NCBI GenBank assembly: GCA_965658445.1
Contig: CBFHSF010000001.1
Location: forward strand, 5,793 to 69,792
Origin: an uncultured Schleiferiaceae bacterium
GTDB lineage: Bacteria; Bacteroidota; Bacteroidia; Flavobacteriales; Schleiferiaceae
DNA length: 64,000 bases
Direction of reading: 5' to 3'
The notes under the pieces are model-generated. The model was given only the letters and a program-made list of their open reading frames with translations. It was not told the origin of the DNA and did no database searches. Below are positions 14,779-63,131 of this stretch, piece by piece. The position numbers and the translations under genes are program-made. Numbering within the stretch: position 1 is the stretch's first letter; each line of letters starts with the position of its first letter.

Positions 14779-15068
14779 TCCGCATCGTAAAAATGGAATT
14801 TGATCCTGCCAAAGTGGAGGACTTTAAAACGCTCTTTGACGACGTTAAGGAGAAAATCAGAGCCTTTGAAGGCTGTCTGCACTTAGAATTGTTGCAACAG
14901 ACCCAAGGGGGAAATATTTTCTTTACCTACAGCGTTTGGGAGGATGAAAAATACTTAGAGAACTACAGGTCGTCAGAGTTGTTTGCCACCGTATGGGCAG
15001 AAACCAAAAAGGGGTTTGCCGGTAAGCCAGAGGCCTGGAGTGTAGATCAAAAAGTTATACTAGAGTGA
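14775..15068 (+). CDS. antibiotic-biosynthesis-monooxygenase (ABM) domain protein
   Basis: 97-aa protein with an ABM-like pattern (FxxxF...H..E.....G...F.YSVWEDE..L..Y). Its ATGA start overlaps the upstream stop, and its stop overlaps the downstream start (GTGA). Confidence 0.65.
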   Translation: MIRIVKMEFDPAKVEDFKTLFDDVKEKIRAFEGCLHLELLQQTQGGNIFFTYSVWEDEKYLENYRSSELFATVWAETKKGFAGKPEAWSVDQKVILE

Positions 15069-15796
15069 TCAGTTTATTTAGAAAGGAAATCAACCATTTT
15101 TTCAGCTCGTTGACGGGGTACCTTGTCATGGCGGTCTTTTTGGTTTTGACCAGTTTGTTCTTGTGGGTTCTCCCAGGGACGTTTAATATTTTCGACAGTA
15201 GTTACGCCGGTGTGGACAATCTTTTTTTGATTGCCCCATGGGTGTTTTTGTTTTTGGTACCGGCCACTACCATGAGAATGTTTTCTGATGAAAAGAGAAC
15301 CGGAACCTTAGAATTGCTGCTGACCAAACCGTTGACAGATTTTCAGTTGGTCTTCGCCAAGTTCTTGGCGGGATGGGTATTGGTCATCCTAGCTCTTTTG
15401 CCCACTCTTCTCTATGTCTACACGGTGTACCAACTTGGAAACCCCGTAGGTAACTTGGATACTGGTGCAACGTTGGGATCCTTTATTGGATTGCTATTGC
15501 TCGGAGCGGCCTACGTAGCCATTGGATTGTTTTCTTCTTCTTTGACGGACAACCCCATCGTAAGTTTTATCCTCGGTGTGATGCTGTGTCTGTTTATGTA
15601 CGTTGGCTTTGATCAGATTGCCGAACTCAAGTGGTTTGGAATTGCCGATTTGTTTTTGCTCAACCTGGGAATCAATGAACATTATACTTCTCTGAGCAGG
15701 GGAGTTATCGATACTCGTGATTTGGTGTATTACATCTCTTTGATGACGCTCTTTTTTGCGGCCACTCAATTGGTATTAAAATCTAGAAAGTGGTAA
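15065..15796 (+). CDS. gldF: gliding-motility ABC transporter permease GldF
   Basis: ABC-2 type six-helix permease of 243 aa, directly upstream of a GldG-like gene. GTG start. Confidence 0.8.
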   Translation: MISLFRKEINHFFSSLTGYLVMAVFLVLTSLFLWVLPGTFNIFDSSYAGVDNLFLIAPWVFLFLVPATTMRMFSDEKRTGTLELLLTKPLTDFQLVFAKFLAGWVLVILALLPTLLYVYTVYQLGNPVGNLDTGATLGSFIGLLLLGAAYVAIGLFSSSLTDNPIVSFILGVMLCLFMYVGFDQIAELKWFGIADLFLLNLGINEHYTSLSRGVIDTRDLVYYISLMTLFFAATQLVLKSRKW

Positions 15797-15798
15797 CC

Positions 15799-17505
15799 AT
15801 GAAGAGAAGAGTAAACGACCTCCTGCGCTTTTTGATTTTGGTAGTGATTCTCATCGCTGTCAACATGTTGTCTTCTCAGTTTTATGGTCGCTATGATGCG
15901 ACTTCTGAGAAGAGGTTTAGTCTGCATCCTGCCACTCAAGAGTTGGTGGATAATTTTGAAGAGAGAATTCTCGTTCGCGTATACTTAGATGGAGACTTCC
16001 CGTCGGGATTTCAGCGCTTGAGCAAAGAGACTCGCCAGATGCTGGACGAGTTTAGAGCCTACAATTCCAATATTGAATACGAATTCATCAACCCCAACGG
16101 AGACGATGATCCCAAGGTCAATCAACAGATAAAGAATCAGTTGGCGGACTATGGATTGCAGCCCATTCAAGTAGAAATCACCAAAGACGGAGAAAAGCGA
16201 CTCACAGAAATTTTCCCGGGAGCAGTGGTATTTATGGGAGATGTGATTCTGCCCATTTCTCTTTTGCAATCGCAATTTGCAACGGACCCAGAAGTCCAGG
16301 TGAATTCCTCCATCCAGAATTTGGAGTACCAGTTTGCCAACGTCTTTAGACAACTTCAAATAAAAAAGAAAAAGGCCATTGGTTTCTTGACGGGACACGG
16401 GGAATTGGGAGACAAATACATTGCGGATATCGCTCTAAGGCTCAGTGCATACTACTCGGTTTCCCGATTCAATTTAAGGGAAGTTGCAGATACTGCAGAT
16501 TTTTCTCTCTCTGCGCAACAGAGGCGAATCAATCGTTTTGATGCGGTAATTATTGCAAAACCTCAGAGTCAGTTCACGGATTTGGACAAGTTGCTCATTG
16601 ATCAATACGTAATGTCTGGCGGTAAGGTGATGTGGTTTTTGGACCCCGTATTTGCCAACATGGATTCACTTCAGTACGCCTCTGAGTTTATAGCGTATCC
16701 CATTGCAGATCAGCTCAATTTGACGGATCAACTATTCAAGTACGGGGTGCGTGTGAATCCCAACCTTGTCATGGACATGGTGGCAGCCGGCGTAAATGAT
16801 AGACGCTCGGTAAATCGTTGGGTGTATTTCCCCATGATTATGCCCATAGAAAAGCATCCCATCGTAAAGGATCTCAACGCCATTAAACTGGAGTTTGCTT
16901 CTACCTTGGATACCATTACATCTCCAGGAATCGAGAAAACAATATTGTTGAGGACTTCGCCTTACACGCGTGTTGTTCCCACACCTCACCGCGTATCTTT
17001 GGCCACTCTTTACGAAGAACCCAATCCGGCTTACTTCTCACAGAAGCACTTACCAGTGGGAATTCTATTGGAAGGGGAATTTGACAGTTACTTCGCCAAT
17101 AGAGTTATACCAACCGAGTCCCTCGATCCTACGTATACTTTGATAGAAAAGGGGAGGAAGACTCAGATGCTCGTCGTGGCAGATGGTGATGTCATCAAGA
17201 ATCAACTCAACCTAGTCAATCCCAATATTCCCAAGGGAACCCCATTGCCACTTGGCTTTGATCAGTTTACCGGAATGGAATTTGGGAACAAGGACTTCTT
17301 GCTCAACGCAGCCGATTTTCTCCTAGACGATACCGGATTGATAAATATCCGTTCACGAGAATTAAAAATTCGACTGTTGGACAGCAACAAAGTCCAGAGC
17401 CAACGTGTTACTTGGCAAATTATTAATACGGGGGTACCCGTTTTGCTCATCCTTTTGGCGGGCGCATTGTACGGCTTTATTCGCCGTCGCAGATACACAA
17501 AATAA
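15799..17505 (+). CDS. gldG: gliding-motility ABC transporter accessory protein GldG
   Basis: About 568 aa with N- and C-terminal TM anchors and a large external domain, paired with gldF as in Flavobacteriia. ATG 15799 is preferred over the ORF-track GTG 15790, which overlaps the gldF stop. Confidence 0.8.
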   Translation: MKRRVNDLLRFLILVVILIAVNMLSSQFYGRYDATSEKRFSLHPATQELVDNFEERILVRVYLDGDFPSGFQRLSKETRQMLDEFRAYNSNIEYEFINPNGDDDPKVNQQIKNQLADYGLQPIQVEITKDGEKRLTEIFPGAVVFMGDVILPISLLQSQFATDPEVQVNSSIQNLEYQFANVFRQLQIKKKKAIGFLTGHGELGDKYIADIALRLSAYYSVSRFNLREVADTADFSLSAQQRRINRFDAVIIAKPQSQFTDLDKLLIDQYVMSGGKVMWFLDPVFANMDSLQYASEFIAYPIADQLNLTDQLFKYGVRVNPNLVMDMVAAGVNDRRSVNRWVYFPMIMPIEKHPIVKDLNAIKLEFASTLDTITSPGIEKTILLRTSPYTRVVPTPHRVSLATLYEEPNPAYFSQKHLPVGILLEGEFDSYFANRVIPTESLDPTYTLIEKGRKTQMLVVADGDVIKNQLNLVNPNIPKGTPLPLGFDQFTGMEFGNKDFLLNAADFLLDDTGLINIRSRELKIRLLDSNKVQSQRVTWQIINTGVPVLLILLAGALYGFIRRRRYTK

Positions 17506-53713: not shown

Positions 53714-54736
53714 CTAGAAATCTCCCAGGCGAGTGGTCACAGAAATGTGATGCATTCTTCCCGCGACATTCATATTGGTATTGGAGTATCCCAGTTTGAA
53801 TTTGTAGAGCTTGAAGCCCAATCCAAAACTCAAACCCGCAGAAGACCTGCGCGTGGGAATCGCCATTTCTAATTGTTGTCTAAAGTGGTAACCTACGTTT
53901 AGGTAAAATTTATCCGATGGGCTGAGTTCCGCAGAAAGGGCCACGTGACGGATTAATTTATTCCAAAAGTTGGGTTCGTTGTAAACCAGTTCTCCCGTTA
54001 CAAAGTCACGTGTATAGGCGTTGGGGTCGTCGTAAGTCAAATCCCATTGATGGAGCTTTTCTAAGTGAATTCCCCAACGTAGCGGAACGTGTTTGAATCG
54101 CTGTGAAATGCTGTATTGCAAATCAAAGGGAAGTGTTTCTGTTGAGTTCGAAAACGGTGTGACCTGATAACCCACGTTTTTTGCCATCATGGACATGATG
54201 ATCTGAGTGTTGGGAATTCTATACGTTGCCGCTAAGTCAAAGGCCATTCCCCATGACGAAAATTCAGCGTAAGCACCGTTGATGAGCTTCATGTTGGCTC
54301 CCACATTCCAATTGGTATCCAATGCATAACCCCATCCGATCTGAAACATGTAGTCGGCGGCGGTAAATTGCCCCACTACCTGAGAGTTGACCAAAGTTCT
54401 CTGAAAATCTCCATAGTAGGCATACTTAAATCCCGCCATAAAAGTTCCGTATTTTTTGAAGTCATGGGCGTAGGCTACTTCTCCTAAACTCACATCAGCC
54501 GCCAAGGCAACGTAGTGAAATCCAAGTTGTCCACTGTATTCGGGATTGAGCAGAGAAGGGTTTACAAAACCAAAGCTGACATCTGCATCGGGGTGAGCTA
54601 AGTGCAATCCGGAGAGCCCTGAAATTCTTGCAGAAGGGGTTACGTTCAAAAAACTGTAGACAGAAGTTCCTCCCACCTGAGAAAAACCGGTGAGGCTTGA
54701 GAGAATTCCCAAACTGAGGAGTAGTTTTTTGATCAT
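53714..54736 (-). CDS. porQ: PorQ-like type IX secretion outer-membrane beta-barrel protein
   Basis: Signal peptide MIKKLLLSLGILSSLTGFSQ, then GGTSVYSFLNVTPSARISGLSG, which I recall as PorQ-like, then a beta-barrel pattern. Start moved to ATG 54736. Confidence 0.55.
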   Translation of the reverse strand: MIKKLLLSLGILSSLTGFSQVGGTSVYSFLNVTPSARISGLSGLHLAHPDADVSFGFVNPSLLNPEYSGQLGFHYVALAADVSLGEVAYAHDFKKYGTFMAGFKYAYYGDFQRTLVNSQVVGQFTAADYMFQIGWGYALDTNWNVGANMKLINGAYAEFSSWGMAFDLAATYRIPNTQIIMSMMAKNVGYQVTPFSNSTETLPFDLQYSISQRFKHVPLRWGIHLEKLHQWDLTYDDPNAYTRDFVTGELVYNEPNFWNKLIRHVALSAELSPSDKFYLNVGYHFRQQLEMAIPTRRSSAGLSFGLGFKLYKFKLGYSNTNMNVAGRMHHISVTTRLGDF

Positions 54737-54804
54737 AGAACAAAGAAAAGAATTATTGTCTAAACGCAGGTCTAGCCTGAATATTGAATGCGAAGAAAAA
54801 AAGC

Positions 54805-54834
54805 TCAAAAAGAAAGAATCCCGCCGAAGCGGGA
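54805..54834 (-). terminator. rho-independent terminator after fadD
   Basis: On the minus strand: TCCCGC-TTCG-GCGGGA followed by a T-rich tract. The 18-nt core is identical to the hairpin at 24226-24243. Confidence 0.7.
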
Positions 54835-56657: not shown

Positions 56658-58334
56658 TTATTTTTTTTGTGGATGTACCTGCTCACCTCTTACGTAAGTG
56701 GCAGTCACCGTGGAGGTTAATATTTCAGATTCGTCACATTGTAACCAATCAGTGTCTAATATAGTAAAGTCCGCGTATTTACCCACCACAATCTGACCTT
56801 TTTGGTCTTCTTGAAATTGAGCATAGGCAGCCCAATGAGTCATTCCTTCGAGGGTTTGTTTGCGCGTTAATCCTTCTTTCATCCTAAAACCACCTTCTGG
56901 ATAGCCCATGGCGTCCTTGCGGGTCACTGCAGCGTAAAAGGTTTTGTGTGTCGAAATGTCTTCGACCGGAAAGTCTGTTCCCAGCGGCATGGTTCCCGTC
57001 ACTTCCAACAAACTTTGGTAGGAATAGGCGTGGTGAATTCTTTCGGGACCCAATCTCTCTTCTGCCCAATACATATCTGAGGTGGCATGGGTGGGCTGTA
57101 CCGAAGGCAATATGTTGTATTCACCAAACTTCGCCAAGTCTTCAGGATTTACGATTTGCGCATGCTCAATTCTCCAACGCTTTCCATTGCCCTTTTCTAA
57201 AACTTGGGCGTAGGTATCCAAAATAAGTCGATTGGCAGAATCCCCAATGGCATGTGTGTTTACTTGGAAATCCATGGCAAGCGCTTGGCGCGAATACATT
57301 AAAAAGTCTTCCGGAGTGTGAATGAGCAAACCACTATTCCCAGGATCGTCGTGATAGGGGTGAAGAAGACACGCCCCTCGAGAACCCAAGGCCCCATCGG
57401 CATAGACTTTAAAAGATGATATTTGGAATCGGTCTCGGATCAGTTTTCCGTTTTCCCCGAAATAGTCCAAGTTCTCCTGATTCATCGCCGCCATAGAATA
57501 TAGAGGCATGGTCAAGACTTCCATTTGGTATAAGGAGTCAAGCCACATCAGGGTTTGTAAATCCAAACCGGCGTCGCATATTCCAGTAATTCCGGCGGCA
57601 AAACAATTTTGCTCTGCTACCAAAAGACGTTTTGTAAATTCTTCAAAATCCACAGAGGGAGTTTCAATTAACTGTTCTGCGTTGTCAATAAAAATCCCTG
57701 AGGGTTGGCCATCCACCAGCATAACTAATCCTCCGTCAATTTCTGATTCGACGGTAATTCCGCTGAGGTCCATGGCTTTTTGATTGGTCCAAACGCCGTG
57801 TCCATCCACTCGACTTAGAACAATGGGAAGTTCCGGATAGGCTTCAGTAAGTTTATGATGGGTGGGGAATCGCTTTCCTTCAAAAAGATTTTGATCCCAA
57901 CCTCTCCCCAAGACAAAGTCTGTGTTGGGGTTGTTTTTTAGAAAATCTGCAATGCGTTCTACTACCTCCTCCTCAGATTGTGCTCCGTACAATTGAACTT
58001 CAAAAAGGGTATTGGCATACCCCACCAGGTGAGCGTGGGCGTCAATAAAACCGGGGTAAATAAATTGATTTTTCAATATCGTAGTATCAGCACTCGGCAT
58101 TTCAGAATTTTCGGAAGTGGCGATAATTTTGCCTTCGTCAATTCCGATCCATCCGGTTACGTACTCGCCACTGTGATAGTAGGTTCCGTGCATCCAAGTG
58201 TCTATGGTGTTATCTCCTTTAGAGGAAGGGTTTTCCATAGAACAAGAGGTTCCTAAAAAAAGAAGGGAAGCCGCTGCGAGTAGAGGGCTATTAAATACAA
58301 ACGTTTTCAATCGATTAGACGGGTTTAGAATCAT
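56658..58334 (-). CDS. amidohydrolase-family (YtcJ-like) metal-dependent hydrolase, lipoprotein
   Basis: Lipobox FLGTSC, FIDAHAHL metal-binding motif, downstream HAIGD, and 558 aa. Confidence 0.8.
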   Translation of the reverse strand: MILNPSNRLKTFVFNSPLLAAASLLFLGTSCSMENPSSKGDNTIDTWMHGTYYHSGEYVTGWIGIDEGKIIATSENSEMPSADTTILKNQFIYPGFIDAHAHLVGYANTLFEVQLYGAQSEEEVVERIADFLKNNPNTDFVLGRGWDQNLFEGKRFPTHHKLTEAYPELPIVLSRVDGHGVWTNQKAMDLSGITVESEIDGGLVMLVDGQPSGIFIDNAEQLIETPSVDFEEFTKRLLVAEQNCFAAGITGICDAGLDLQTLMWLDSLYQMEVLTMPLYSMAAMNQENLDYFGENGKLIRDRFQISSFKVYADGALGSRGACLLHPYHDDPGNSGLLIHTPEDFLMYSRQALAMDFQVNTHAIGDSANRLILDTYAQVLEKGNGKRWRIEHAQIVNPEDLAKFGEYNILPSVQPTHATSDMYWAEERLGPERIHHAYSYQSLLEVTGTMPLGTDFPVEDISTHKTFYAAVTRKDAMGYPEGGFRMKEGLTRKQTLEGMTHWAAYAQFQEDQKGQIVVGKYADFTILDTDWLQCDESEILTSTVTATYVRGEQVHPQKK

Positions 58335-58387
58335 GCTTTTGAATTTCAGAAAGCCTAAGTTAGTTGAAACCTTTTAATTGAGTCATT

Positions 58388-58567
58388 ATGCGACGTATTG
58401 TACAACCGCTGTTGTTGTTCTTTTGTTTTTTATCAACCCTTGGGTTGTTGGCCCAACCCAACCTGCCCGATGAACCGGTTCCCTTGCCCGCAGGGGCATT
58501 GTGGTTTCTCGGGGCCGTTTTGGGAGGGCTCGGTCTTTGGCCGCGAAAACGCAAATCAGAGGAGTAA
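58388..58567 (+). CDS. 59-aa mini-protein: signal peptide plus VPLPA/PEP-CTERM-like sorting domain
   Basis: My translation is MRRIVQPLLLFFCFLSTLGLLAQPNLPDEPVPLPAGALWFLGAVLGGLGLWPRKRKSEE. It has a signal peptide, a P-D-E-P / VPLPA motif, a Gly/Leu-rich TM and an RKRK cluster. It is one codon short of the ORF-track cutoff. Confidence 0.45.
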   Translation: MRRIVQPLLLFFCFLSTLGLLAQPNLPDEPVPLPAGALWFLGAVLGGLGLWPRKRKSEE

Positions 58568-58668
58568 AATTTCTCTGTAGAAAAACCGCAACAGAGGTTG
58601 GGGAGTGAGTCCTAAAATATCACGTGAACTAATTGTATCTGACACTTTATTCTAAAATGGAATTGACG

Positions 58669-58676
58669 TACCTTTG
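58669..58676 (+). promoter_or_regulatory. -7 box TACCTTTG upstream of purL
   Basis: Matches TAnnTTTG, 15 nt before ATG 58691, implying a very short leader. Confidence 0.4.
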
Positions 58677-58690
58677 CGGCACAATTCAAA

Positions 58691-60934
58691 ATGATCATTA
58701 TGTCATCAGTTCCTGCAGAGGTAACGGTAGAAACCGCCAAAGACCTCGGACTACTACCGGAAGAGTTTGATAAAATTTGTGAAATCTTGGGGCGCACTCC
58801 CAACTATACGGAGTTGAGTATATACTCTGTGATGTGGAGTGAGCACTGTTCTTACAAGAACTCCATCGTATGGTTAAAGACCCTCCCAAAAGACGGCCCC
58901 CACATGTTGGTGAAAGCCGGGGAAGAAAATGCCGGATTGGTTGACATTGGTGATGGATTGGCTTGTGCCTTTAAAATTGAATCACACAACCACCCTTCTG
59001 CGCTAGAGCCTTACCAAGGTGCTGCAACAGGAGTAGGTGGTATCAACCGCGATATTTTTACGATGGGTGCTCGCCCCATTGCTCAATTGAACTCCCTTCG
59101 CTTTGGTGATGTAGATACCGACAGAACCAAGTGGCTACTCAACGGAGTGGTTAAGGGAATTGGTAACTACGGGAACTCCTTTGGGATTCCAACCGTAGGT
59201 GGAGAAGTTTACTTTGACAAGAGTTACGAGCAAAACCCATTGGTTAACGCATTCTCTGCGGGAATCGTTGAAGTAGGTGGACAAATTTCTGCCAAGTCAG
59301 GCGGCGTTGGAAACCCCGTTTACATCGTAGGTTCTTCTACAGGTAGAGACGGTATCCACGGAGCGGCTTTTGCTTCAAAGGATCTTACTGAAGATTCTGC
59401 CGATGACATCCCATCTGTACAGGTAGGTGACCCCTTCCAAGAAAAACTCTTGCTAGAAGCTACAATGGAATTGGCCAAGTCAGGTGCCGTAGTTGGTATG
59501 CAGGATATGGGAGCTGCGGGTATTACCTGTTCAACTTCAGAAATGAGTGCCGGAGGTGAAGTAGGTATGAGAATTGACCTAGACAAAGTTCCATTGCGTC
59601 AAGACAACATGGAGCCTTGGGAGATCTTGCTTTCAGAATCACAAGAGCGTATGCTTGTAGTGGTTGAGAAAGGTAAAGAAGAAATCGTAGAAAAGATTTT
59701 TGACAAGTGGGATATCCACTGTATGAATATTGGTGAAGTAACGGCCGAAGACAACCTTGAGTACTACTGGAATGGAGAATTGATTGCTCAAACTCCTGCA
59801 TCTCCATTGGTATTGGGAGGTGGAGCTCCGGTTTACTACCGCGAGTTTAGAGAGCCTGCTTACTTTAAGGAAAACCAGAAGTTCGACATCAACAGCATTA
59901 AAGAACCTAAGGACCTTAGAGACTTTGGTAAGAAGATGGTGGGACTTCCCAACATCGCTAGCAAGCGCTATGTTTACGAGCAGTACGACAGCATGGTAGG
60001 AACTATCAACATGTCTACCAACGCTCCTTCCGATGCGGCCATTGTAAACATCAAAGGTTCTAACAGAGCTTTGGCGATGACTGTGGATTGTAACGCTAGA
60101 TACGTTAATGCTGATCCTGAAACAGGAACAGCCATTGCCGTTTCTGAAGCCGCTAGAAATATTGTTTGTTCTGGAGGTCTTCCTTCGGCAATTACCAACT
60201 GTCTAAACTTTGGAAACCCATACAACCCAGAAGTTTACTGGCAGTTTGTAGGAGCTATCAAAGGAATGAAAAAGGCCTGTGAGAAGTTTGCGACTCCGGT
60301 AACCGGAGGAAACGTAAGTTTCTACAACCAAACGGCCATTGGCGATTCAGTTGAGCCTGTATTCCCAACGCCTACCATTGGAATGATTGGTGTGGTTGAA
60401 GACAAGAAGAACATCATGACCATCCCCTTCAAGCAAAAAGGAGATTTGATTTACATGATTGGAGAAAACAGAAATGACATTAACTCTTCTGAATACCTAG
60501 TGCGCATGCACGGGGTAGAAAACTCTCCCGCACCTTTCTTCAGCTTGGAAGAAGAATACGCTAACCAGGAGCAATTGAAGATGTTGATTCGCAAGGGCGT
60601 TATCAACGCGGCTCACGATGTATCGGAAGGTGGAATTTTTGTCGCCCTAACTGAGATGGCCATGGCCTCTGATTTGGGTTACGATATCACTACAGACGCT
60701 GCCATCAGAAAAGACGCTTACCTCTTCGGAGAAAGCCAATCTCGTATTATGGTGACCGTTTCTCAGGATACTGAAGATGACTTCATCGATTTGATGATGC
60801 TCAACGGTGTTGAATTTGATTTGGTAGGTCACGTAACCAAAGGCGCTATTCGCATTGACGATGAGGACTGGGGAGAAGTAGCCGACTACAAGTCAGTTTA
60901 CGACAACTCTTTGGGAGAAAAGATGGCTCACTAA
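58691..60934 (+). CDS. purL: phosphoribosylformylglycinamidine synthase subunit PurL
   Basis: [26 protein letters not shown], and 747 aa. Confidence 0.95.
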
Positions 60935-61716: not shown

Positions 61717-62472
61717 TTAGGAAGTTAGTGGAATCTCTAAGGTAAGACTAAATCCCTTGGTGGGTTCTGAGTACATTTTATGTTGTGCTCTTAATACATC
61801 TGCTCGTGATTGAATATTGTGAAGCCCCAAGTTCTTCTTCGTAGACTCCATGTCAAAGCCCTTTCCGTTGTCCCTGTACAGAACGTGAAGGTGAGATCCT
61901 TCGTCAGAGATTTCTATGCTAATGCGATTGCAATCCGCGTATTTGATGGAATTGTTGAGACATTCTTGCAGTATGCGGAAAAGAAGAATTTCTCTTTCCT
62001 TTTCTAAGAGATCCTCGGTGGCAAAGTATTCCAAGTTGATTTTTATTTCTGAGTTGGATTCCACTGATTTTATTCGCTCTTCCAACGCTGCTTTTAAACC
62101 GTATTCCTTGAGAGTAGGAGGTAGCAAGTCGTTGACAATCCTTCGTACGCCTTCCATGCCTTCGAACATTAAACCGTCCAGTTCTGCCAATTGTGGATTG
62201 GATGAAATCTGTAATCGCGCGGTGGAAAGGATGGCACCAATGTCATCGTGAAGATCTTGAGCAATCCGTTGTTGCTCATTTTCTCTGGACTCCACTGTGG
62301 CCTTGAGAAGGTTTTCTTGGTGCTTGAGTTTGAGTTCTTGAACGTCCCTCTCCTGTTTGAGCACGCGCTTTTGATAAGTGATTACAAAGAGAATAATCGC
62401 CCCCACAAAAAATAGGATGATAAGTCCTGCGGTGAAAAATAGAACGCTTATTTGTTGCTCTTCGGGTTGCAT
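61717..62472 (-). CDS. HisKA_3-type (NarX/DesK-like) sensor histidine kinase
   Basis: One TM, a coiled coil, H-box QRIAQDLHDDIG, then ECLNNSIKYA and DNGKGF. ATG 62472 lies 25 nt inside the end of the upstream membrane gene. Confidence 0.88.
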   Translation of the reverse strand: MQPEEQQISVLFFTAGLIILFFVGAIILFVITYQKRVLKQERDVQELKLKHQENLLKATVESRENEQQRIAQDLHDDIGAILSTARLQISSNPQLAELDGLMFEGMEGVRRIVNDLLPPTLKEYGLKAALEERIKSVESNSEIKINLEYFATEDLLEKEREILLFRILQECLNNSIKYADCNRISIEISDEGSHLHVLYRDNGKGFDMESTKKNLGLHNIQSRADVLRAQHKMYSEPTKGFSLTLEIPLTS

Positions 62473-63131
62473 AGTACGGCTACTGAATAACTTAAATATA
62501 AGAGAATATTGAGTACGGCATGAACAGACCACAAGCTCCGGAAAAGGGGAGAGGATCGATCCGAAATATAGTTTCCAAATATGAACAGCAACAGGTTGCA
62601 GCTAAAGTAGATGAGAAGACCGGAGGCCAACCAAAAGAGTGGACTCCTCAGAAGGTTCTTTTCCATTTTTTGAATCAGTGTGGAATAGAAGTAATAAATA
62701 GAAACGGCAATGATTAAAATGCTTTCTGTGGTCCTTGTGAACGATGGATATTCAGACATGTCCTGAATCCATGCGGAGTTGATAATAACAAATACCTCGA
62801 AGGCCAGAAGCACTCCAACAAATAGGGCGGATGAATTTTTAGGCGTGGGAATAATGGGTTTTAAAAGTATCCATATCCAGAAAAACTCTATCCCAACATA
62901 GAGGTGGTACAAGGGCATGTTATTGCCCGAGCCTTCTATGCCGAGATAGAGTGCTAAAAATTGGATGATGCCAATGGTAATGAGATAGAATCCCATCACC
63001 CAATAAAACCTTTCTCTCCAACCATTCTTCCAAGGTTGCTTCCCTAAAAGCATTGCGAATGGCAAGAGAAAGGAGAGGCTACTCACCCAAATCAGCGGCG
63101 GATATTGACTAATCAAAGAGTCCGTTTCCAC
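62448..63131 (-). CDS. polytopic membrane protein (about 6 TM), probable sensing partner of the kinase
   Basis: Hydrophobic-helix pattern throughout. Overlaps the kinase start. Uses a GTG (63131) or TTG (63116) start, and either one overlaps the upstream lipoprotein stop. Confidence 0.6.
   Translation of the reverse strand: METDSLISQYPPLIWVSSLSFLLPFAMLLGKQPWKNGWRERFYWVMGFYLITIGIIQFLALYLGIEGSGNNMPLYHLYVGIEFFWIWILLKPIIPTPKNSSALFVGVLLAFEVFVIINSAWIQDMSEYPSFTRTTESILIIAVSIYYFYSTLIQKMEKNLLRSPLFWLASGLLIYFSCNLLLFIFGNYISDRSSPLFRSLWSVHAVLNILLYLSYSVAVLCNPKSNK

What the first reader, a model, noticed from the sequence alone, without database searches (positions are those of the whole stretch)
58388..58567. 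Cargo-less 59-aa protein: signal peptide fused directly to a VPLPA/PEP-CTERM-like sorting tail
The ORF lies between the amidohydrolase gene and purL. It encodes MRRIVQPLLLFFCFLSTLGLLAQ / PNLPDEP / VPLPAGALWFLGAVLGGLGLW / PRKRKSEE.

**Architecture.** A Sec signal peptide is followed almost immediately by a Pro-acidic-Pro motif, a Gly/Leu/Ala-rich TM helix and a basic cluster. That is the tripartite layout of PEP-CTERM exosortase sorting signals. The literal VPLPA matches the VPLPA-CTERM variant that I recall from TIGRFAMs/NCBIfam, mostly from Alphaproteobacteria; the accession needs checking.

**Why it is odd.** Fewer than 10 residues lie between the predicted signal-peptidase site and the sorting motif, so there is essentially no cargo.

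**Context.** No exosortase gene is present in this window. From memory, Bacteroidota carry a distinct exosortase family (XrtF) whose cognate substrates are poorly defined. The ORF looks more G+C-rich than its surroundings. It is one codon too short for the supplied ORF track, which instead lists two overlapping ORFs with no recognisable features.
Basis: partly seen in the sequence, partly recalled or inferred. Interest (0 to 1): 0.65.

Follow-up and report, generated by a model that had tools for sequence, protein, structure and literature searches.

The report
Orphan, divergent PID-CTERM-type membrane mini-protein
The 59-codon ORF is a real, selected gene for a tiny exported membrane peptide. 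It is a divergent, oddly placed member of a large, uncharacterised Bacteroidota family (signal peptide plus "PID-CTERM" tail) whose typical members sit directly behind type IX secretion cargo genes.

Summary
**Observation:** confirmed. ORF 58388..58567 (+) encodes the stated 59 residues.

**Real gene:** positional orthologs lie between the same amidohydrolase and purL genes in three diverged Schleiferiaceae lineages. They show codon-level purifying selection: differences at codon positions 1/2/3 are 12/5/30, pN/pS is 0.25 and p is 5e-8. All other frames carry stops.

**VPLPA-CTERM reading fails:**
- TIGR03370 scores 16 bits against a cutoff of 25.35.
- The orthologs do not hit it.
- A scrambled motif gives similar weak hits to several PEP-CTERM models.

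**What it is instead:** a full-database profile search links the ORF to more than 600 proteins of 55-75 aa with the same layout. Typical members pass NCBIfam NF046080 and carry Pfam PF28310 (PID-CTERM). hhalign gives 97.9% probability and a score of 64, against at most 28 for shuffles. Being "cargo-less" is therefore normal for this family. The window protein itself fails the curated model, because PIDGG has become PLPAG.

**Context:** 60 of 62 typical members directly follow a large ORF, and 41 of 43 of those ORFs end in a T9SS type A sorting domain. The window gene does not follow such an ORF.

**Not found or untested:** no exosortase was found near any copy. The XrtF link remains untested.

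**Most likely product:** a Sec-exported, signal-peptidase-cleaved (A22|Q23), N-out/C-in membrane peptide of 37 aa.

The parts
58388..58567 (+). Mini-protein gene: 59 codons plus the TAA stop.
   Evidence: ORF confirmed. Positional orthologs are present in L001/L002, L003/L086, L083-85 and L087-89. Purifying selection acts on this frame only.
58388..58453 (+). Predicted Sec/SPase I signal peptide, residues 1-22 (MRRIVQPLLLFFCFLSTLGLLA). Predicted cleavage is A22|Q23.
   Evidence: The n-region, h-region and c-region are read from the sequence. Gln-Pro after the predicted cleavage site is invariant, and the residue before it is Ala in all but one (Gly), across the 9 diverged sequences aligned. 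Canonical members read A-Q-P or A-Q-A. This fits the Bacteroidetes Q-rule (PMC5837995, PMC10653852). Cleavage is inferred; no signal-peptide predictor was available.
58454..58492 (+). Short extracytoplasmic segment, residues 23-35 (QPNLPDEPVPLPA). It contains the family-conserved V-P-[LI] motif just before the membrane stretch.
   Evidence: P30, V31 and P32 are invariant among the positional orthologs. hhalign aligns this segment to VPIDGG of canonical PID-CTERM members.
58493..58540 (+). Gly/Leu/Ala-rich transmembrane stretch, residues 36-51 (GALWFLGAVLGGLGLW).
   Evidence: Read from the sequence. L38, L41, G42 and G46 are conserved among orthologs. Shuffling the residue order here removes the TIGR03370 hit.
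58541..58564 (+). Cytoplasmic basic tail, residues 52-59 (PRKRKSEE).
   Evidence: Read from the sequence. Replacing RKRK lowers the TIGR03370 score from 16 to 11 bits. All family members carry a K/R cluster here.
58356..58377 (+). Upstream block CCTAAGTTAGTnnAAACCTTTTAA, shared with the L087 clade. It includes TAAGTTAG, one mismatch from the Bacteroidetes -7 consensus TAnnTTTG. This is a possible promoter of the mini gene (weak inference).
   Evidence: Comparison of upstream sequences. The consensus is recalled from my own knowledge and was not tested.
58669..58676 (+). TACCTTTG, a -7-like box of purL's own promoter, 31 nt before the conserved ATGTCATCAG start at 58700. It shows that purL does not depend on the mini gene.
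   Evidence: The box is at the same position in all four clades, with the sequence conserved (TACATTTG in L087). Relatives that lack the mini gene keep purL next to the amidohydrolase gene.

Best explanation
**Claim.** The ORF is a genuine gene restricted to a narrow lineage (about genus level within Schleiferiaceae, order Flavobacteriales). It encodes a divergent 'orphan' member of the Bacteroidota PID-CTERM mini-protein family.

**Proposed mechanism.**
1. The 22-residue N-terminal signal peptide takes the precursor through Sec. *(Inferred from the sequence.)*
2. Signal peptidase I cuts at LLA|QP and exposes Gln23, which Bacteroidota usually cyclise to pyroglutamate. *(Inferred from the invariant Gln-Pro after the predicted cut site and the Q-rule literature.)*
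3. This leaves a 37-residue bitopic inner-membrane peptide.
   - About 13 Pro/acidic residues face the periplasm.
   - A Gly-rich helix with GxxxG-type spacing spans the membrane.
   - An RKRK cluster sits in the cytoplasm.
   *(Inferred from the positive-inside rule.)*
4. The peptide most likely acts through its conserved V-P-[LI] juxtamembrane motif and its Gly-rich helix, by binding a membrane partner. *(Inferred.)*

**What is shown.**
- The gene is real.
- It is under selection.
- It is homologous to the family.
- It is placed differently from typical members, which sit directly behind T9SS cargo genes.

**What is not shown.** It is not known whether the tail is then cut by an exosortase-like enzyme. 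The replacement of the family's D-G-G by P-A-G, P-T-H or S-P-H makes identical processing doubtful.
For: **Real gene.**
- The 62-aa ORFs in L003 and L083 differ at 47 of 186 sites, distributed 12/5/30 over codon positions.
- pS is 0.60 and pN is 0.15, with Fisher p = 4.7e-8.
- The five other frames carry 3-6 stops each.
- Cross-clade comparisons also give pN < pS (p from 4e-3 to 3e-7).

**Synteny.** The order amidohydrolase(-) / mini(+) / purL(+) holds in three clades. Against the window, these clades share 90-93% purL identity but only 38-41% mini-protein identity.

**Family link.**
- A profile of the orthologs searched against 1.84 billion representatives returned only 54-74-aa proteins of the same layout.
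- Three of these pass NF046080 PID-CTERM, with 29.3, 47.2 and 43.9 bits against a cutoff of 26.
- A wider search gave 668 hits. Nearly all of the 120 listed are 60-75 aa and carry PF28310; one is named PID-CTERM by NCBI.
- hhalign of the ortholog clade against the canonical clade gives 97.9% probability, E = 5e-13, over 56 collinear columns.
- The hhalign score is 64.1. Within-segment shuffles reach at most 28.4 and full shuffles at most 16.6.
- An HMM built only from canonical members picks the window ORF as the top hit among the 1,526 ORFs of the window (E = 1e-4).
- The same HMM picks the ORF's orthologs as the only non-canonical hits among 24,945 ORFs.

**Signal peptidase site.**
- Gln-Pro after the predicted cleavage site is invariant, and the residue before it is Ala in all but one (Gly), across the diverged members aligned.
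- Other secreted proteins of the window also end their leaders in xAQ, GQ or SQ.
- The Q-rule is described in PMC5837995.
Against: - The window protein does not reach the curated PID-CTERM models: there is no NF046080 hit at E<=10 and no precomputed PF28310.
- An HMM of the canonical tail alone does not detect it. For the window sequence itself, most of the direct similarity therefore lies in the signal peptide, AQP and linker-VP[LI] part. The link to the tail rests on intermediates: P0005, P0008, P0089 and the L003 clade.
- It is not adjacent to a T9SS cargo gene, unlike 60 of 62 typical members.
- Signal-peptide cleavage, topology and any partner are inferred, not measured.
- The function of the whole family is unknown, and no paper in the searched library mentions PID-CTERM.
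Confidence: 0.7

Rival explanations
1. **True sorting-signal substrate.** After Sec export, an exosortase-family enzyme (XrtF in Flavobacteriales) recognises the V-P-[LI] motif at the membrane surface, removes the TM-plus-basic anchor, and transfers or releases the short pGlu-Pro-rich peptide.
For: - The tripartite tail lies at the extreme C-terminus, after a signal peptide. This is the layout that defines PEP-CTERM (PMC1569441).
- NCBI curators named the related domain a 'protein-sorting domain'.
- XrtF targets are still unknown, and XrtF mutants of F. johnsoniae share biofilm and colonisation phenotypes with T9SS mutants (PMC10936215; bioRxiv 10.1101/2024.12.02.626408).
- Canonical family members are tied to T9SS cargo genes.
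Against: - No exosortase was found in the 64-kb window.
- No exosortase was found among the real-looking polytopic ORFs (5 of 19 candidates were scanned; the others were set aside by eye) within +-10 kb of 90 family loci, about 0.85 Mb.
- The window clade has lost the D-G-G of the signature.
- Only one copy is seen in the window, whereas PEP-CTERM domains usually occur many times per genome.
- With only about 13 residues of 'cargo', it is unclear what would be sorted.
Confidence: 0.2
2. **Two-helix hairpin membrane protein.** The N-terminal hydrophobic stretch is not cleaved. The protein stays as an N-in/C-in hairpin with a 13-residue periplasmic loop.
For: Positive charges flank both ends (MRR and RKRK). 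No signal-peptide predictor could be run.
Against: - A Gln-Pro junction invariant across the 9 diverged sequences aligned and AQP/AQA in the canonical members read, with a small residue at -1, fits a signal peptidase I site and the Q-rule (PMC5837995).
- The leader sequence itself diverges freely between clades, as signal peptides do.
Confidence: 0.12
3. **Member of the VPLPA-CTERM (TIGR03370) or PEP-CTERM (TIGR02595) families proper.**
For: The literal VPLPA is present. The TIGR03370 hit runs over the whole model, 1-25 of 25, at E = 0.009.
Against: - The score is 16.0 bits against a cutoff of 25.35.
- Orthologs P0002 and P0003 give no hit at E<=10.
- P0004, which also reads PVPLPAG, scores 13 bits over 15 of the 25 model positions.
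- A scrambled LVPAP version gives 12-14.6 bits to four other PEP-CTERM-type models.
- TIGR02595 gives no hit on the native sequence.
Confidence: 0.02
4. **Spurious ORF, non-coding element, or purL leader peptide.**
For: - The ORF is short and lies in an intergenic gap.
- Its G+C content is atypical.
- Related genomes lack it at this position.
Against: - There is codon-position-specific divergence, and the frame stays open across lineages whose mini-proteins are only 38-41% identical.
- There is no Rfam match.
- purL keeps its own conserved -7-like box downstream of the ORF.
Confidence: 0.02

Closest known systems
PID-CTERM protein-sorting domain mini-proteins (NCBIfam NF046080; Pfam PF28310) of Bacteroidota
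   Same: - Total length is 55-75 aa.
- The leader ends in A|Q-P.
- An acidic/Pro linker of about 10-15 residues follows.
- Then comes V-P-[IL], a Gly/Ala/Leu-rich TM stretch and a K/R cluster.
- Profile-profile homology is 97.9%.
   Different: - The signature PIDGG is replaced by PLPAG.
- The GYGxKK end of the helix is replaced by GLGLWPRKRK.
- The curated HMM cutoffs are not met.
- The gene does not follow a T9SS cargo gene.
- The subfamily is confined to a few close Schleiferiaceae lineages.
PEP-CTERM / exosortase (EpsH) system (TIGR02595; Haft 2006, PMC1569441)
   Same: A signal peptide, then a C-terminal motif at the periplasm-membrane interface, then a hydrophobic stretch of about 14-17 residues, then a basic cluster.
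   Different: - There is no PEP motif and no HMM hit.
- No exosortase was found nearby.
- There is a single copy in the window rather than many.
- There is essentially no passenger domain.
VPLPA-CTERM (TIGR03370)
   Same: The literal VPLPA precedes a Gly/Leu-rich helix and a basic cluster.
   Different: - The score is sub-threshold (16 against 25.35 bits).
- The motif is not conserved in orthologs.
That range was not checked here.
LPXTG / sortase anchors (TIGR01167)
   Same: The same tripartite logic. Mutated versions of the tail drift to weak LPXTG hits.
   Different: LPXTG anchoring is a Gram-positive cell-wall system, and no LPXTG motif is present. The resemblance is only one of layout.

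Membership tests
VPLPA-CTERM (TIGR03370) | Score at or above the curated cutoff of 25.35 bits. | tested here: not met
   16.0 bits, E = 0.009. The mature peptide alone scores 16.6 bits.
VPLPA-CTERM (TIGR03370) | Signature motif conserved in orthologs. | tested here: not met
   Orthologs read PVPISPH and PVPIPTH and give no hit at E<=10. P0004 (PVPLPAG) scores 13.1 bits over a partial match.
PEP-CTERM (TIGR02595) | Near-invariant Pro-Glu-Pro motif and an HMM hit of at least 16 bits. | tested here: not met
   No TIGR02595 hit at E<=10 for the native sequence. Only a scrambled construct reached 12 bits.
PEP-CTERM (TIGR02595) | N-terminal signal peptide, plus a TM stretch and basic cluster at the extreme C-terminus. 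| tested here: met
   Read from the sequence. The layout is as defined in PMC1569441.
PEP-CTERM (TIGR02595) | Exosortase (EpsH/Xrt) gene in the same genome. | not testable with these tools
   None was found in the 64-kb window.
PEP-CTERM (TIGR02595) | Several tail-bearing proteins per genome. | tested here: inconclusive
   There is one such tail in the 64 kb and none in the flanks of the orthologous loci. The whole genome was not seen.
PID-CTERM (NF046080 / PF28310) | Score at or above the curated cutoff of 26 bits for NF046080. | tested here: not met
   No NF046080 hit at E<=10 for the window protein, P0002, P0003, P0004 or P0007. Relatives P0005, P0006 and P0008 pass with 29.3, 47.2 and 43.9 bits.
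PID-CTERM (NF046080 / PF28310) | Signature V-P-I-D-G-G before the helix. | tested here: not met
   V-P-L is kept, but D-G-G has become P-A-G. 114 of the 120 proteins retrieved (114 of the 120 held, i.e. all but the window's own orthologs, P0005 and P0007) have P[IVLA]DGG.
PID-CTERM (NF046080 / PF28310) | Whole-protein layout: leader ending in A|QP, a short acidic linker, then the tail, for 55-75 aa in all. | tested here: met
   Alignments A4 and A5 and the length distribution.
PID-CTERM (NF046080 / PF28310) | Detectable homology to family members. | tested here: met
   - hhalign gives 97.9% probability, E = 5e-13.
- Shuffle controls reach a score of at most 28.4, against 64.1 for the true alignment.
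- The canonical-only HMM gives E = 1e-4 in the window and 4e-5 for the L003 ortholog.
PID-CTERM (NF046080 / PF28310) | Gene lies directly downstream of a T9SS type A CTD cargo gene. This is an empirical trait found here, not part of the curated definition. | tested here: not met
   The upstream neighbour is a divergently transcribed amidohydrolase lipoprotein gene. Typical members show the pairing in 60 of 62 cases, and 41 of 43 of the upstream ORFs hit Por_Secre_tail.

The most novel reading that the evidence does not exclude
PID-CTERM mini-proteins, including this unlinked and motif-altered copy, may be the missing link between the Bacteroidota exosortase XrtF, whose substrates are unknown, and type IX secretion. 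In this reading each mini-protein is co-expressed with a T9SS cargo protein. It is then either processed by XrtF or serves as a membrane-embedded partner or acceptor for that cargo. The window's orphan copy would be a variant that has escaped both the cargo linkage and the D-G-G processing site. That would make it a natural separation-of-function allele.
Probability: 0.12. Interest if true: 0.8.

Novelty: new variant of a known kind. Interest (0 to 1): 0.42.

Why it matters
**For annotation.** The ORF should be called as a gene. Gene callers did call it in metagenomes but left it as 'hypothetical'. The curated PID-CTERM models miss this subfamily.

**For biology.**
- The finding points to a very large and entirely uncharacterised family of Bacteroidota proteins of about 65 aa. 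Each consists of little more than a signal peptide and a sorting-type tail.
- In the samples examined here, these genes almost always sit directly behind large T9SS cargo genes.
- XrtF substrates are still unknown (PMC10936215; bioRxiv 10.1101/2024.12.02.626408).
- XrtF mutants resemble T9SS mutants in F. johnsoniae (PMC10936215).
- The family therefore offers a concrete, testable candidate link between XrtF and T9SS.

**The window copy itself.** It is a minor, lineage-restricted offshoot. Its value is as a natural variant that lacks both the signature D-G-G and the cargo linkage.

Tried and rejected
1. **Rfam scan** of 58200-58800 at E<=10 gave only chance-level CRISPR-repeat, miRNA and preQ1 hits far below threshold. 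A structured RNA was rejected.
2. **Promoter/terminator scan** gave nothing above the shuffle expectation that bears on the ORF.
3. **Close relatives L001 and L002** are 98% identical in DNA and so too close for any selection test.
4. **Single-sequence protein search** found one 97%-identical protein only. Progress needed the syntenic ortholog from L003 and then profile searches.
5. **Lipoprotein reading** was considered because of the Cys in the leader. It was rejected by eye: residues -3 to -1 (FFC, ILC) do not fit a lipobox, and the Cys is not in register between clades.
6. **HGT reading of the high G+C** was rejected. The other clades have ORF G+C equal to locus G+C.
7. **purL leader-peptide reading** was rejected. 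purL has its own conserved -7-like box, and relatives without the ORF keep purL at this position.
8. **Exosortase search** among polytopic membrane ORFs of the window and of 90 loci found none. This test has low power because only +-10 kb was visible.
9. **The local Pfam copy does not hold PF28310.** hmmscan therefore returned nothing for proteins that carry a precomputed PF28310 hit.
10. **Haft 2012 (PMC3256604)** is not held in the library.
11. **'PID-CTERM'** occurs in no searchable paper.

Full report
**1. The observation**

ATG 58388 to TAA 58565-58567 on the + strand gives MRRIVQPLLLFFCFLSTLGLLAQPNLPDEPVPLPAGALWFLGAVLGGLGLWPRKRKSEE.

- It lies in the 356-nt gap between a divergently transcribed amidohydrolase gene and purL. 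The amidohydrolase gene is 56658..58334 on the - strand. Its product begins with a lipoprotein-like leader ending in LGTSC.
- purL is listed from 58691. The conserved start ATGTCATCAG is at 58700.
- In a six-frame search of the 64 kb, it is the only ORF ending in a P.P motif, then a hydrophobic stretch, then a basic cluster.
- Its G+C is 53% against 37-45% nearby.
- Two overlapping ORFs of similar length exist on other frames.

**2. Is it a gene?**

Near-identical copies (L001 from JGI, L002 from Logan) are 98% identical in DNA and say nothing about selection. A scan of one genome per species with purL as query placed the window in Schleiferiaceae/Cryomorphaceae, order Flavobacteriales.

*Orthologs at the same position.*
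- The closest genome (L003, purL 90% identical) has a 62-codon ORF at the same position that is only 38% identical in protein.
- Profile searches then found two more versions at the same position: P0003 (L083-85) and P0004 (L087-89, purL 93% identical).
- More distant relatives (L007, L009, L014, L015; purL 75-81% identical) have the amidohydrolase gene directly beside purL. By my estimate from the tblastn coordinates, the spacer there is about 170 nt. No such ORF is present.

*Selection.*
- L003 and L083 differ at 47 of 186 sites, distributed 12/5/30 over codon positions.
- pS is 0.60 and pN is 0.15, with Fisher p = 4.7e-8.
- The other five frames show no such pattern and carry 3-6 stops each.
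- Between clades, synonymous sites are near saturation, yet pN remains below pS (p from 4e-3 to 3e-7).
- The gene evolves much faster than its neighbours. Against L087 and L003 respectively, the mini-protein is 41% and 38% identical; for the neighbours, purL is 93% and 90%, the acyl-CoA ligase 92% and 81%, and the amidohydrolase 71% and 57%.
- It still keeps A22, Q23, P24, P30, V31, P32, L38, L41, G42 and G46.

*Other readings excluded.*
- Rfam finds nothing.
- purL has its own -7-like box (TACCTTTG, 58669-58676), at the same place in all clades with the sequence conserved (TACATTTG in L087), so the ORF is not a purL leader.
- The high G+C is peculiar to the window lineage.

**3. The VPLPA / PEP-CTERM reading**

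TIGR03370 (VPLPA-CTERM) does exist. It matches residues 31-56 over its whole length, but at 16.0 bits against a cutoff of 25.35. Pfam gives nothing, and TIGR02595 gives no hit.

I scanned the two L003-clade orthologs and eight test constructs of the window protein:

| Sequence scanned | Result |
|---|---|
| Orthologs P0002 and P0003 | no hit at E<=10 |
| VPLPA changed to AAAAA or STSTS | TIGR03370 hit removed |
| RKRK replaced | score drops to 11 bits |
| Helix residue order shuffled | TIGR03370 hit removed |
| Motif scrambled to LVPAP | 9-15 bits to six models: five PEP-CTERM-type models and TIGR03370 itself (12.7 bits) |

Scores of this size therefore reflect the generic layout of a Pro motif, a Gly/Leu helix and a basic cluster. 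They do not show membership. That assignment is not supported.

**4. What it belongs to**

*Database searches.*
- A profile of the four ortholog sequences was searched against 1.84 billion representative proteins. Beyond the orthologs it returned five proteins of 54-74 aa with the same collinear layout.
- Three of these pass NCBIfam NF046080, 'PID-CTERM protein-sorting domain', with 29.3, 47.2 and 43.9 bits against a cutoff of 26.
- A search with all nine sequences gave 668 proteins at E<=1. Nearly all of the 120 listed are 60-75 aa and carry a precomputed Pfam PF28310 (PID_CTERM) hit. NCBI names one 61-aa member 'PID-CTERM protein-sorting domain-containing protein'.
- The typical sequence is ...LLHA|QPGFGDDVDDVPIDGGLSLLVAAGVGYGVKKxxKRKK.

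*Homology tests.*
- hhalign of the ortholog clade against 45 typical members gives 97.9% probability, E = 5e-13, over 56 collinear columns.
- The hhalign score is 64.1. Forty within-segment column shuffles reach at most 28.4, full shuffles at most 16.6, and the reversed alignment scores 15.3.
- An HMM built only from typical members ranks the window ORF first among the 1,526 ORFs of the window (E = 1e-4). That match covers the leader, AQP and the linker with VP[LI]. An HMM of the tail alone does not see it.
- The same whole-protein HMM aligns the L003-clade ortholog end to end (23.6 bits). At E<0.01 it hits nothing else among 24,945 ORFs except true family members.
- Intermediates bridge the motif: PVPLPAG (window, P0004), PVPLHG (P0005, which passes NF046080), PVPLDGG (P0089) and PVPIDGG (P0008).

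*Conclusion.* The window gene is a divergent offshoot of the PID-CTERM mini-protein family. It fails the curated thresholds and has lost the Asp-Gly-Gly of the signature.

**5. Context of the family**

For typical members the genomic context is strikingly uniform.
- All precomputed contexts examined show the mini gene 12-50 nt after a large gene on the same strand that carries Por_Secre_tail. L095 holds two such pairs in tandem.
- In 80 metagenome loci every PID tail lies in a short stop-to-stop ORF of 49-123 codons, apart from a few 21-22-codon tail-only fragments.
- 60 of the 62 copies with at least 700 nt of upstream sequence follow a same-strand ORF of at least 150 aa. The median gap is about 50 nt, and the median size of complete upstream ORFs is 1,113 aa.
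- The C-terminal 130 residues of 41 of 43 such ORFs hit Pfam Por_Secre_tail.
- The 798-aa protein upstream of P0005 passes TIGR04183.
- P0007 has a 63-aa cluster-mate (at least 90% identical), WP_151694002.1, in cultured Phaeocystidibacter marisrubri. It too follows an ORF whose end looks CTD-like by eye.
- The cargo proteins are otherwise diverse and mostly unannotated.

One caveat applies. The metagenome loci were confirmed against a full-length mini-protein, so they cannot show that the tail never occurs on large proteins.

The window ortholog group breaks this rule in all three clades.

No exosortase was found among the polytopic ORFs scanned (five real-looking ones out of 19 candidates, chosen by eye) within +-10 kb of 90 loci, about 0.85 Mb, or in the window. 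This is a weak test, because XrtF need not be adjacent to its substrates.

**6. Mechanism**

*Shown.*
- The gene is coding and under selection.
- It is homologous to the family.
- It has lost the linkage to a cargo gene.

*Inferred.*
- Sec export.
- Signal peptidase I cleavage at LLA|QP. Gln-Pro after the predicted cleavage site is invariant across the diverged members aligned, and the residue before it is Ala in all but one, which has Gly.
- A pyroglutamyl N-terminus. Other leaders in the window also end in AQ, GQ or SQ, which fits the Bacteroidetes Q-rule (PMC5837995, PMC10653852).
- A 37-aa N-out/C-in peptide that works through its juxtamembrane V-P-[LI] motif and its Gly-rich helix.

*Open.* Whether an exosortase then cuts the tail is not known. 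XrtF substrates are reported as unknown, and XrtF and T9SS mutants share phenotypes in F. johnsoniae (PMC10936215; bioRxiv 10.1101/2024.12.02.626408). The T9SS linkage found here therefore makes a testable hypothesis for the family. It is not evidence about this particular gene.

**7. Verdict**

- This is a new variant of a known but uncharacterised kind.
- Interest is moderate. It comes mainly from what the finding reveals about the family, not from the orphan copy itself.

Noticed in passing
L093 6347-10192; L095 1-10195; L090 7593-10165; L097-L176 (metagenome loci): Typical PID-CTERM mini-protein genes sit directly downstream of large genes on the same strand whose products end in a T9SS type A sorting domain. 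The median gap is about 50 nt. 60 of 62 copies are paired in this way, and 41 of 43 upstream C-termini hit Por_Secre_tail. Several loci hold two cargo-mini pairs (L095, L154, L172, L158). I found no paper that mentions PID-CTERM.
   Followed up: partly
L105 853-994; L119 664-726; L124 1586-1651: Extra stop-to-stop ORFs of 21-22 codons match only the PID-CTERM tail (22-36 bits). They lie immediately after the mini gene, and L105 has two in a row. They may be decayed tandem duplicates or very short additional tail peptides.
   Followed up: no
window 58669-58700 and the same place in L003, L083, L087: The block TTGACGTACCTTTGC...CAATTCAAAATGA before purL is conserved across clades. It contains TACCTTTG (TAnnTTTG type) 31 nt before ATGTCATCAG. 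This is probably the purL promoter and suggests that the true purL start is 58700, or the in-frame 58691.
   Followed up: partly
window 58573-58596: The inverted repeat CTCTGT-N12-ACAGAG lies just after the mini gene's stop. It is present only in the window lineage, where the spacer to purL is 132 nt against 78-89 nt in the other clades. No T-run follows it.
   Followed up: no
window 62448-63131 (-), overlapping 61717-62532 (-): A 227-aa ORF with about 5 hydrophobic segments has no NCBIfam hit. It overlaps the start of a histidine-kinase ORF by 85 nt. It may be the sensor half of that kinase, split by a frameshift or a miscalled start.
   Followed up: no
window 53714-54808 (-), 15065-17505 (+): T9SS and gliding genes are present in the window: PorQ (316 bits) lies 3.5 kb from the mini gene, and GldF and GldG lie further away. 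The block FtsH-LUD-CdsA-Psd-ACBP-Cmk-PorQ-acyl-CoA ligase-amidohydrolase-mini-purL is syntenic in L086 and L087.
   Followed up: partly
L003/L086 vs window, 56658-58334 (-): The amidohydrolase next to the mini gene diverges far faster than the genes around it: 57-71% identity against 90-93% for purL and 81-92% for the acyl-CoA ligase. The mini gene and this neighbour thus form a fast-evolving pocket in an otherwise conserved block.
   Followed up: no
tools: vs 48/52: The local Pfam-A library used by hmmscan does not contain PF28310 (PID_CTERM), although precomputed annotations list it. A negative Pfam scan for this family is therefore uninformative.
   Followed up: yes
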